Positions 38,056-38,315 of a stretch of DNA of 64,000 nt are shown here, piece after piece (within the stretch, counting starts at the first letter, position 1; each line of letters opens with the position of its first letter). This DNA comes from Escherichia coli. Its GTDB lineage: Bacteria; Pseudomonadota; Gammaproteobacteria; Enterobacterales; Enterobacteriaceae. The DNA is taken from NCBI RefSeq assembly GCF_003790525.1, contig NZ_CP033635.1, one strand, 5' to 3'. The position numbers were made by a program, and so were the translations under genes. The notes beneath the pieces were generated by a model. It worked only from the letters and a program-made list of their open reading frames with translations, did no database searches and was not told the DNA's origin.

Positions 38056-38315
38056 ATAAGTGATATCAATAATTCCATTATTCATATACCCATTGATATA
38101 AATATATTCTGAATTATTGATAATGTCTGATAATAAACTTGATTTCTTGCTGTTTTAATAATATTTAAATAATAAATTTATATTTAAGATTGATTAATTA
38201 ATATTATTTTTAGATAAAACTATCTCATTGGTGTACTATGCCTGTGAATCAAAGCACACTTATTATTTTAAGTGATGATTCATGGTAAAGGATATATTAT
38301 ATCAATGGAGTTTTT

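What the first reader, a model, noticed from the sequence alone, without database searches (positions are those of the whole stretch)
38056..38315. Extremely AT-rich leader of about 260 bp upstream of the fimbrial operon
The stretch between the glmS terminator and the fimbrial start codon is almost entirely A/T (for example TAATAATAAATTTATATTTAAGATTGATTAATTAATATTATTTTTAGATAAAAC). Such curved AT-rich tracts are typical of H-NS-silenced or phase-regulated fimbrial promoters. No invertible-element recombinase is nearby, which argues against a fim-type switch.
Basis: inference. Interest (0 to 1): 0.3.

Follow-up and report, generated by a model that had tools for sequence, protein, structure and literature searches.

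The report
AT-rich promoter leader of lpfO113 fimbriae
The very A/T-rich 300 bp between glmS and the fimbrial genes is the promoter region and untranslated leader of the known E. coli long polar fimbria operon lpfO113; it is ordinary for such operons and shows no DNA-inversion or methylation switch.

Summary
Positions 38056-38315 are 79% A+T, the lowest-GC stretch of the 64 kb window. The window is E. coli SMS-3-5. The operon is the known lpfO113 (lpf2-1/stg-type) chaperone-usher cluster, on a ~5.4 kb islet that starts exactly at the glmS stop codon and ends at the pstS Pho boxes. Relatives from 12 lineages all sit directly downstream of glmS behind a 307-699 bp leader of 21-33% GC. One motif is positionally conserved: GTAnnAT 83-97 nt before the ATG (TACTAT 38234-38239), which I read as the -10 element. 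That predicts a ~70-nt 5' UTR opening with a stem-loop that folds better than shuffles in most lineages. Tests for an invertible switch were negative: the inverted repeats are not conserved, 0 of 1941 genomes carry the inverted form, and no recombinase lies in the window. There are no GATC sites for a Pap-type switch, no Fur box above chance and no slippage tract. Predicted curvature is strong here but absent in the relatives. H-NS silencing is plausible from composition and analogy with lpf1 and pef, but it is untested. Verdict: an ordinary, uncharacterised promoter/leader of a known operon; low interest.

The parts
36179..38008 (+). glmS (context; the last conserved backbone gene; homology with lpf-less E. 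coli ends at its stop codon)
   Evidence: Pfam SIS + GATase; annotation; comparison with the empty site in L004
38024..38055 (+). Intrinsic terminator of glmS, carried by the islet: 13-bp stem, 4-nt loop and a T7 run. The GGGCTGCC/GGCGGCCC core is shared with the O157 lpf2 locus.
   Evidence: RNA fold -22.4/-23.6 kcal/mol, z -4.55; alignments A1 and A2
38056..38210 (.). Distal AT-rich region. The part upstream of the predicted promoter and UTR (38056-38230) has GC about 17% and no GGA. Curvature is predicted for this allele. It is the candidate H-NS nucleation or UP-like region. Its sequence is lineage-specific; only its composition is conserved.
   Evidence: conserved E. coli blocks in A1
38211..38216 (+). 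Candidate -35 hexamer TAGATA (4/6), 17 bp upstream of the -10. Relatives have TTGATA, TTGCCA or TTGTCA at 16-18 bp.
   Evidence: inference; no TSS data
38234..38239 (+). Predicted -10 hexamer TACTAT, part of the invariant GTAnnAT motif
   Evidence: Invariant columns in the 10-sequence alignment A3. Best of 1024 gapped patterns for positional conservation: 11 of 12 independent leaders at 83-97 nt from the ATG.
38246..38315 (+). Predicted 5' UTR of about 70 nt (TSS inferred at about 38246). It holds a second GGA at 38290-38292 and the Shine-Dalgarno GGAG at 38307-38310.
38246..38281 (+). Two-tier 5' stem-loop: GAAUCA...CACUUA-loop-UAAGUG.UGAUUC
   Evidence: Centroid structure. The first 45 nt fold better than shuffles in this allele (z -2.86) and in relatives (mean z -2.8 over 12 leaders). 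One compensatory UA to CG change and U.G pairs.
38316..38888 (+). lpfA-O113, fimbrial major subunit
   Evidence: Pfam Fimbrial; RefSeq annotation
38936..39667 (+). lpfB-O113, periplasmic chaperone
   Evidence: Pfam PapD_N/PapD_C; annotation
39692..42214 (+). lpfC-O113, outer-membrane usher
   Evidence: Pfam Usher/PapC_N/PapC_C; annotation
42225..43295 (+). lpfD-like fimbrial protein (putative tip adhesin)
   Evidence: Pfam Fimbrial in the C-terminal half; annotation
43296..43437 (.). Right end of the islet. Homology with the K-12-type glmS-pstS spacer resumes at about 43438 (TGTCATAAAACTGTCAT, pstS promoter).

Best explanation
The AT-rich stretch is the cis-regulatory region and 5' untranslated leader of the lpfO113 (lpf2-1/stg-type, gamma-1 chaperone-usher) fimbrial operon. 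It lies on a ~5.4 kb islet that replaces the K-12-type glmS-pstS spacer.

The proposed order of events is as follows. glmS transcription stops at the islet-borne terminator (38024-38055). The operon is then transcribed from its own sigma-70-type promoter, with a conserved -10 (TACTAT, 38234-38239) and a weak -35 (TAGATA). This gives a ~70-nt leader that starts with a stem-loop and ends in a GGAG ribosome-binding site. The ~180 bp upstream of the promoter is about 83% A+T. It most likely works through its composition, as a nucleation site for H-NS/StpA-type silencing. Environmental regulators would have to overcome that silencing, as shown for the related lpf1 and for pef.

Shown here: the anatomy, the islet boundaries, the terminator fold, the conserved -10 motif and its fixed distance to the ATG, and the AT-richness of every homologous leader. 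Inferred: the transcription start site, promoter use, H-NS binding, and any role of the UTR hairpin.
For: Identity and context: 100% match to E. coli SMS-3-5, with genes annotated lpfA/B/C-O113 and fimbrial subunit, chaperone, usher and adhesin domains.

Islet boundaries: homology with an lpf-less E. coli ends at the glmS stop codon and resumes at the pstS Pho boxes. The leader is present in 1974 of 5426 complete E. coli genomes, single copy and chromosomal.

Terminator: z -4.55.

AT-richness as a family trait: homologous operons in Salmonella enterica, S. bongori, Pseudocitrobacter, E. ruysiae, Enterobacter, Kluyvera and unnamed enterics all lie directly after glmS. Their leaders are 307-699 bp with GC 21-33%, against 53-57% in glmS.

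Promoter: GTAnnAT is invariant in A3. It is the top positionally conserved pattern of 1024 tested, found in 11 of 12 lineages at 83-97 nt from the ATG; the 12th has TATAAT at 78. TTGnnn-type -35 hexamers lie 16-18 bp upstream in several relatives.

Homologous region is an active promoter: stg upstream-lacZ fusions in S. Typhi are active, highest in minimal medium (PMC5809473).

The operon is transcribed and differs about 10-fold between wild-type STEC groups (PMC6033998).

H-NS precedent: lpf1 is silenced by H-NS and relieved by Ler (cited in PMC4288034). pef is silenced by H-NS (PMC6844306). Most chaperone-usher operons are reported as H-NS regulated (PMC6033998).
Against: I found no TSS, ChIP, footprint or hns-mutant data for lpfO113.

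No H-NS high-affinity 10-mer exceeds chance: best 8/10, P 0.78.

Predicted curvature is not conserved in relatives, so it cannot be a required feature.

The simple consensus scan did not list the TAGATA-17-TACTAT pair, which scores 8/12, below its 9/12 cut-off. It listed another pair instead, TTAATA-18-TATATT at 38155-38184, so a second or alternative upstream promoter is possible.

The related lpf2 of O157 is reported to respond to pH, bile, iron and Fur rather than H-NS.

Within E. coli the core-promoter patch is among the least conserved parts of the leader.
Confidence: 0.7

Rival explanations
1. A fim-type invertible promoter element: the perfect 12-nt inverted repeats CCATTGATATAA (38090-38101) and TTATATCAATGG (38297-38308) flank a 195-bp segment that a tyrosine recombinase acting in trans flips on and off.
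For: Two perfect 12-nt inverted repeats occur in 260 bp. Only 1.4% of dinucleotide shuffles give two 12-mer matches. The flanked segment contains the predicted promoter.
Against: The left arms are not conserved in other E. coli lineages: CCATCGATATAA, TTTCTATATAA and CAGCAATATGA. A query with the segment inverted found 0 of 1941 genomes covering at least 80% of it; all genomes carry the same orientation. No recombinase is annotated in the 64 kb. The right arm overlaps the conserved pre-Shine-Dalgarno block.
Confidence: 0.02
2. A Pap-type epigenetic phase switch, with Dam methylation of GATC sites competing with Lrp binding.
For: The best Lrp-consensus match is 13/15 at 38097. Many fimbrial operons use this mechanism (established knowledge).
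Against: There is no GATC anywhere in 37990-38330, and 0 GATC in six of the eight leaders counted. The Lrp match is no better than shuffles, P 0.28. No papI/papB-like regulator genes are in the 4-gene operon.
Confidence: 0.01
3. An iron/Fur-, bile- and pH-responsive promoter like that of lpf2 in O157:H7. On this reading specific regulators, not H-NS, set expression.
For: lpf2 occupies the same locus and shares the terminator core, the -10 block and the Shine-Dalgarno block with this leader. lpf2 is reported to respond to pH 6.5, bile salts, iron and Fur. stgA rises in an oxyR mutant of S. Typhi.
Against: No Fur box: the best match is 12/19 to the 19-mer (P 0.91) and 11/14 to the 7-1-7 motif (P 0.80). 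The OxyR motif is at chance. The two leaders are alignable only in the promoter-proximal ~130 bp; the lpf2 leader is 699 bp. This reading is not exclusive of H-NS silencing.
Confidence: 0.15
4. The main regulated step is post-transcriptional. The conserved 5' stem-loop and the pair of GGA motifs (38290-38292 and the Shine-Dalgarno sequence) would form an mRNA-stability or CsrA-binding module, as in the Salmonella pef and fim leaders.
For: The first 45 nt of the predicted UTR folds better than shuffles in most of the 12 leaders tested (z -1.0 to -3.7; 10 of 12 at P < 0.05), although the sequences differ. One compensatory change and U.G pairs are present. GGA density is 1.72 per 100 nt in the UTRs against 0.45 upstream. 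There is a precedent: CsrA binds the pefA 5' UTR, and the fim 5' UTR titrates CsrA (PMC6844306).
Against: The whole 95-nt UTR is no more stable than shuffles (z -0.66). Four of 12 lineages lack a second GGA. The lineages are not independent. The TSS is only predicted. The palindrome could equally be a DNA operator.
Confidence: 0.1
5. A functionless AT-rich junction left by islet insertion, with the operon expressed by read-through from glmS.
For: The islet boundary lies at the glmS stop codon. The leader diverges faster than the flanking genes within E. coli.
Against: A strong terminator lies between glmS and the leader. The GTAnnAT motif and its distance to the ATG are conserved across genera. 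The homologous stg upstream fragment drives lacZ on its own.
Confidence: 0.03

Closest known systems
lpfO113 / lpfA2-1 / 'lpfB1' operon of LEE-negative STEC, and the Stg fimbriae of APEC O78 and S. Typhi, all at glmS-pstS
   Same: This is that operon. It is annotated lpfA/B/C-O113, has four genes, sits between glmS and pstS, and S. enterica StgA-like proteins are 66-69% identical. The stg upstream region has demonstrated promoter activity.
   Different: In the library I could search, I found no dissection of the lpfO113 promoter or leader. The -10, UTR and hairpin assignments here are new predictions.
lpf2 (O-island 154) regulatory region of E. coli O157:H7
   Same: It has the same chromosomal locus. 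It shares the glmS terminator core, the ATTGGT(A)GTACTAT block, ATCAAA and AATGGAGTT..TTTATGAA. Its leader is also AT-rich, at 28% GC.
   Different: The lpf2 leader is 699 bp against 307 bp, and the operon has extra genes. lpf2 regulation by Fur, iron, bile and pH is reported, but no Fur box is detectable here.
lpf1 (O-island 141) regulatory region of O157:H7: H-NS silencing relieved by Ler
   Same: It is an AT-rich leader of a long polar fimbria operon on a horizontally acquired islet.
   Different: It lies at a different locus (from memory, yhjX-yhjW). SMS-3-5 is not known to carry LEE/Ler, which I did not check. H-NS binding is shown for lpf1 and only inferred here.
pef operon promoters and 5' UTR of S. 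Typhimurium (H-NS/StpA/Hha silencing plus CsrA on the leader)
   Same: It combines an AT-rich silenced fimbrial promoter with a structured, GGA-containing 5' UTR. It is the best analogue for the two-layer model.
   Different: pef is plasmid-borne, has two promoters and belongs to a different fimbrial clade. CsrA binding here is only an idea.
fimS invertible switch of type 1 fimbriae
   Same: It also has short inverted repeats flanking a promoter-containing segment upstream of a fimbrial major-subunit gene.
   Different: Here the repeats are not conserved, no inverted form exists in 1941 genomes, and no adjacent recombinase is present.

Membership tests
lpfO113 / lpf2 / stg fimbrial locus at glmS-pstS | Operon directly downstream of glmS and upstream of pstS | tested here: met
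   The same glmS adjacency holds in the relatives whose contig retains the upstream gene.
lpfO113 / lpf2 / stg fimbrial locus at glmS-pstS | Four genes: major subunit, chaperone, usher, adhesin-like subunit, with sequence identity to lpfA-O113 | tested here: met
   Pfam domains; RefSeq names lpfA/B/C-O113; 1959 genomes with the same annotation under the match
H-NS (xenogeneic) silenced promoter region | AT content far above the genome average over a few hundred bp | tested here: met
   79% AT; lowest-GC stretch and lowest-GC intergenic region of the window
H-NS (xenogeneic) silenced promoter region | Lies on variably present, horizontally acquired DNA | tested here: met
   Islet boundaries against the empty site; present in 36% of complete E. 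coli genomes
H-NS (xenogeneic) silenced promoter region | High-affinity H-NS motif (TCGATAAATT-like) or conserved intrinsic curvature | tested here: not met
   Motif best 8/10, P 0.78. Curvature is predicted for this allele only and is at shuffle level in 11 homologous leaders. Neither feature is strictly required for H-NS binding.
H-NS (xenogeneic) silenced promoter region | H-NS occupancy and derepression in an hns mutant | not testable with these tools
   No data found in the literature searches
fimS-type invertible switch | Conserved inverted repeats flanking the promoter | tested here: not met
   Perfect 12-nt repeats exist but their left arms vary among lineages
fimS-type invertible switch | Both orientations found among genomes | tested here: not met
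   0 of 1941 genomes match the inverted construct over at least 80%
fimS-type invertible switch | Site-specific recombinase gene adjacent | tested here: not met
   None annotated in the 64 kb. A recombinase acting in trans is not excluded.
Pap-type Dam/Lrp phase switch | Two GATC sites within Lrp-binding sites upstream of the promoter | tested here: not met
   No GATC in 37990-38330
Fur-regulated promoter (as reported for lpf2) | Fur box (19-mer or 7-1-7) overlapping the promoter | tested here: not met
   12/19 and 11/14, no better than shuffles
sigma-70 promoter | -10 hexamer TAnnnT conserved at a fixed distance from the gene | tested here: met
sigma-70 promoter | Mapped transcription start | not testable with these tools
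   No TSS data available. The lpf2 regulation paper (Arenas-Hernandez 2014) is not held.

The most novel reading that the evidence does not exclude
All glmS-linked Stg/Lpf2/LpfO113 operons of Enterobacteriaceae might share a post-transcriptional control module. It would comprise a ~70-nt leader at a fixed distance from a conserved -10, opening with a stem-loop that is kept in shape but not in sequence, followed by GGA motifs that bracket the ribosome-binding site. If so, fimbrial output would be set by mRNA stability or CsrA availability, as in the fim-pef hierarchy of Salmonella, rather than only by H-NS acting on the AT-rich DNA.
Probability: 0.15. Interest if true: 0.35.

Novelty: new member of a known kind. 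Interest (0 to 1): 0.15.

Why it matters
lpfO113 is used as a virulence and typing marker in STEC, EAEC and APEC, and its expression differs about 10-fold between clinical groups of strains. Its control region has nevertheless not been dissected in the literature I could search. A predicted promoter, a UTR and a list of excluded switch mechanisms give a concrete starting point for reporter and ChIP experiments. Beyond that, this is a typical AT-rich leader of a horizontally acquired fimbrial operon and changes no general picture.

Tried and rejected
- **Invertible element.** Found two perfect 12-nt inverted repeats. Rejected because the repeats are not conserved and the inverted-construct search found 0 of 1941 genomes.
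- **Dam/Lrp switch.** No GATC sites, and the Lrp match is at chance.
- **Fur box.** By eye, GATAATGTCTGATAATAAA looked Fur-like. Scoring showed it is no better than shuffles, and the first GATAAT is not conserved.
- **H-NS 10-mer, IHF and OxyR consensus.** All at chance.
- **CRP.** A 9/10 core match (P 0.007) lies at 38243-38258, but only in the SMS-3-5 allele. Not taken as a family feature.
- **Curvature as a functional feature.** Strong for this allele but not conserved. The wedge parameters were recalled from memory.
- **Known RNA families.** Rfam gave nothing near any gathering score.
- **Small ORFs.** None lie inside the leader.
- **Slipped-strand tracts.** Only an 11-nt two-copy repeat was found, and the T5 near the -35 is invariant in length.
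- **Literature.** The key lpf2 regulation paper (Arenas-Hernandez 2014), Doughty 2002, Torres 2007 and Rojas-Lopez 2011 are not held. The EAEC 042 hns transcriptome paper and its supplements do not mention lpf.
- **Terminator scan.** The pattern scan missed the glmS terminator. Folding showed it clearly.

Full report
**1. Observation.**
The stretch 38056-38315 is 260 bp with 20.8% GC, against 48.5% for the 64 kb window. It ranks 14th lowest of 63,741 overlapping 260-bp windows, and the absolute minimum is at 38047. In 200-bp windows GC falls from about 0.5 in glmS to 0.20-0.255. Using the RefSeq annotation, the intergenic region 38009-38315 has the lowest GC (25.4%) of the 20 intergenic regions of at least 100 bp. 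A 60-bp core, 38153-38212, is 58/60 A/T. TpA steps make up 14% of dinucleotides, against 5.2% in the window. The flanks are as described. glmS runs from 36179 to 38008. The hairpin at 38024-38053 with a T-run folds at -22 to -24 kcal/mol, z -4.55; the pattern scanner missed it. The fimbrial ATG is at 38316 behind GGAG.

**2. What the locus is.**
The window is E. coli SMS-3-5, at 100% identity. The gene order is atp operon, glmU, glmS, lpfA-O113, lpfB-O113, lpfC-O113, a fimbrial protein, then pstSCAB-phoU. Pfam domains fit a major subunit, PapD-like chaperone, usher and adhesin-like subunit.

Compared with an lpf-less E. coli (L004), homology stops exactly at the glmS stop codon. It resumes at the pstS Pho boxes at about 43438. 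So a ~5.4 kb islet, which includes its own glmS terminator and the AT-rich leader, replaces about 207 bp of K-12-type spacer.

This is the published lpfO113 cluster, also called lpfA2-1, 'lpfB1' or the stg type. The leader is present in 1974 of 5426 complete E. coli genomes. It is always single copy and chromosomal and is never annotated. Its allele groups are at least 99% (160 genomes), about 94% (217) and about 85% (1586) identical to this one.

**3. Relatives.**
LpfA-O113 homologues at 56-87% identity occur in Pseudocitrobacter, E. ruysiae, Salmonella enterica, S. bongori, Enterobacter, Kluyvera, Klebsiella and Superficieibacter. I fetched the context of twelve of them. Wherever the contig retains a complete upstream gene, the operon lies directly downstream of glmS. 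In two loci the upstream gene is cut by the contig end and carries no annotation, and one contig ends just before the fimbrial gene. The leaders are 307-699 bp with GC 21-33%, against 53-57% in glmS and 44-51% in the major subunit gene. AT-richness is therefore a property of the whole leader family, while most of the sequence is not alignable between genera.

**4. Promoter.**
One short block is invariant in a 10-sequence alignment of the promoter-proximal 145 nt: GTAnnAT. I then ran an unbiased census of all 1024 patterns of the form XXXnnXX. GTAnnAT is the pattern with the most lineages sharing a common distance to the ATG. Eleven of 12 independent leaders have it at 83-97 nt, and it is nearly unique within each leader. 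The 12th has TATAAT at 78 nt.

I read TAnnAT as the -10 hexamer; here it is TACTAT at 38234-38239. Candidate -35 hexamers lie 16-18 bp upstream:
- TAGATA in SMS-3-5 (4/6)
- TTGATA in Salmonella
- TTGCCA in S. bongori
- TTGTCA in Enterobacter

The consensus scanner lists seven promoter-like pairs in the leader, against 2.9 expected. These include TTAATA-18-TATATT at 38155-38184. In DNA this AT-rich such hits mean little, but a second upstream promoter cannot be excluded.

Independent experimental support comes from the homologous S. Typhi stg upstream fragment, which drives lacZ, best in minimal medium (PMC5809473). The TSS at about 38246 is inferred, not shown.

**5. Leader RNA.**
The predicted UTR is 70-75 nt in 11 of the 12 leaders tested and 84 nt in O157 lpf2. 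Its first 45 nt fold more stably than dinucleotide shuffles in most of the 12 leaders tested: z ranges from -1.0 to -3.7, the mean is -2.8, and 10 of 12 reach P < 0.05.

In SMS-3-5 this is a two-tier hairpin at 38246-38281. Among E. coli alleles one pair shows a compensatory UA to CG change and another shows C-G to U.G. E. ruysiae keeps the outer stem and has a different inner stem. The complete 95-nt leader is not unusually stable (z -0.66).

GGA triplets are about four times denser in the UTRs than upstream: 1.72 against 0.45 per 100 nt, with the Shine-Dalgarno sequence excluded. This recalls CsrA control of the pef and fim leaders in Salmonella (PMC6844306). It is a lead, not a finding.

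**6. Switch mechanisms tested.**
- **Inversion.** There are two perfect 12-nt inverted repeats (38090-38101/38297-38308 and 38064-38075/38111-38122). Only 1.4% of shuffles do as well. Both are built on an ATTGATA motif whose left copies are mutated in other lineages. A construct with the 195-bp segment inverted matched no genome over at least 80% of its length, 0 of 1941. No recombinase is annotated in the window.
- **Dam/Lrp.** There is no GATC, and the Lrp match is at chance.
- **Slippage.** Only an 11-nt two-copy repeat is present, and the T5 at the -35 has constant length.
- **Fur.** The best match is 12/19, P 0.91. This holds although lpf2 of O157 is reported to respond to iron and Fur, bile and pH.
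- **H-NS 10-mer, IHF, OxyR.** All at chance.
- **CRP.** A 9/10 core match at 38243-38258 (P 0.007) is specific to this allele.

**7. Curvature.**
I used a Bolshoy-Trifonov wedge model, with parameters recalled from memory. The region has an end-to-end/contour ratio of 0.62, against 0.92 +/- 0.06 for 260-bp windows across the 64 kb. That places it in the top 0.8% of windows, and only 0.3% of its own shuffles are as curved. The peak is at 38200-38220. The B1-type allele is less curved (0.76), and 11 homologous leaders from other lineages are indistinguishable from their shuffles (0.83-0.95).

**8. Mechanism.**
The best-supported reading is an autonomous, weak-(-35) sigma-70 promoter embedded in extremely AT-rich DNA on a horizontally acquired islet.

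Established knowledge says such DNA is the preferred substrate of H-NS/StpA. Related fimbrial operons are silenced this way: lpf1 by H-NS, relieved by Ler; pef; and most chaperone-usher operons. I therefore put H-NS binding at about 0.6. No experiment on this operon was found.

Expression differs 10-12-fold between groups of wild-type STEC carrying operons 99-100% identical. Within E. coli the core-promoter patch 38211-38245 is among the most divergent parts of the leader. One allele is 97-99% identical on both sides but only 83% identical there. Allelic promoter differences may therefore contribute to strain-specific expression; this is inference.

**9. Comparison and novelty.**
The operon, its locus and its use as a marker are known. 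AT-rich leaders that are likely H-NS targets are the norm for horizontally acquired fimbriae. What this analysis adds is a conserved -10, a fixed UTR length and a 5' stem-loop across genera, plus the exclusion of the classical phase-variation mechanisms. I file it as a new, uncharacterised member of a known kind, with low interest.

Noticed in passing
window 48100-55500: A large low-GC island (down to 23% GC) lies between phoU and yieH. It contains the most curved 260-bp window of the whole 64 kb, at 48301. It carries a gene annotated 'type III effector protein' (791 aa) and two hypothetical proteins (802 and 395 aa). From memory, K-12 has the bgl operon at this place.
   Followed up: partly
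window 38243-38258: A near-consensus CRP core, TGTGA-N6-GCACA (9/10, P 0.007 against shuffles), overlaps the predicted transcription start. It is present only in the SMS-3-5 allele; other lineages have TTTGA, TTTGG or TGCGA.
   Followed up: partly
window 38064, 38092, 38116, 38300: Four copies of ATTGATA/TATCAAT lie in the leader, out of 15 in the whole window. They generate the two perfect 12-nt inverted repeats. Three of the four are lineage-specific. No matching regulator motif was identified.
   Followed up: partly
window 38211-38245 versus L005 (FDAARGOS_1291): Divergence is mosaic. This allele is 97-99% identical to SMS-3-5 in the distal and mid leader and 99.5% in lpfA, but only 83% in the core-promoter patch and 91.5% in the UTR. 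That suggests recombination or rapid change exactly at the promoter.
   Followed up: no
L009-L014, L016, L017, L020 (relatives): In nine fetched relatives from at least six genera, the homologous fimbrial operon sits immediately downstream of glmS, the attTn7 neighbourhood. Each has a different terminator and leader sequence. In L018 and L019 the upstream gene is unannotated, and L015 has no upstream flank. Whether this reflects ancestry, an insertion hot spot or functional coupling to glmS is open.
   Followed up: partly
L002 (NZ_CP132594.1, 'K-12'): This laboratory K-12 record carries lambda kil, gam and bet genes inserted right after glmS. It is evidently an engineered insertion at attTn7. 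It illustrates how the site is used and cautions against taking any 'K-12' record as an empty-site reference.
   Followed up: no
window 38290-38292 and 38307-38310; 12 related leaders: GGA triplets are about four times denser in the predicted 5' UTRs (1.72 per 100 nt, Shine-Dalgarno excluded) than in the upstream AT-rich parts (0.45 per 100 nt). Eight of 12 lineages have a second GGA upstream of the Shine-Dalgarno sequence. This may indicate CsrA sites.
   Followed up: partly
window 23840-24217: The mnmG-mioC intergenic region, the position of oriC, lies inside the window. This is relevant to any skew or composition analysis of the window.
   Followed up: no
window about 61500-62750: tnaB is annotated as a pseudogene (internal stop) in SMS-3-5.
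   Followed up: no
window 38153-38174: An 11-nt tandem duplication, TTTAAATAATA x2, lies in the most AT-rich core and is conserved in the five E. coli alleles compared.
   Followed up: no
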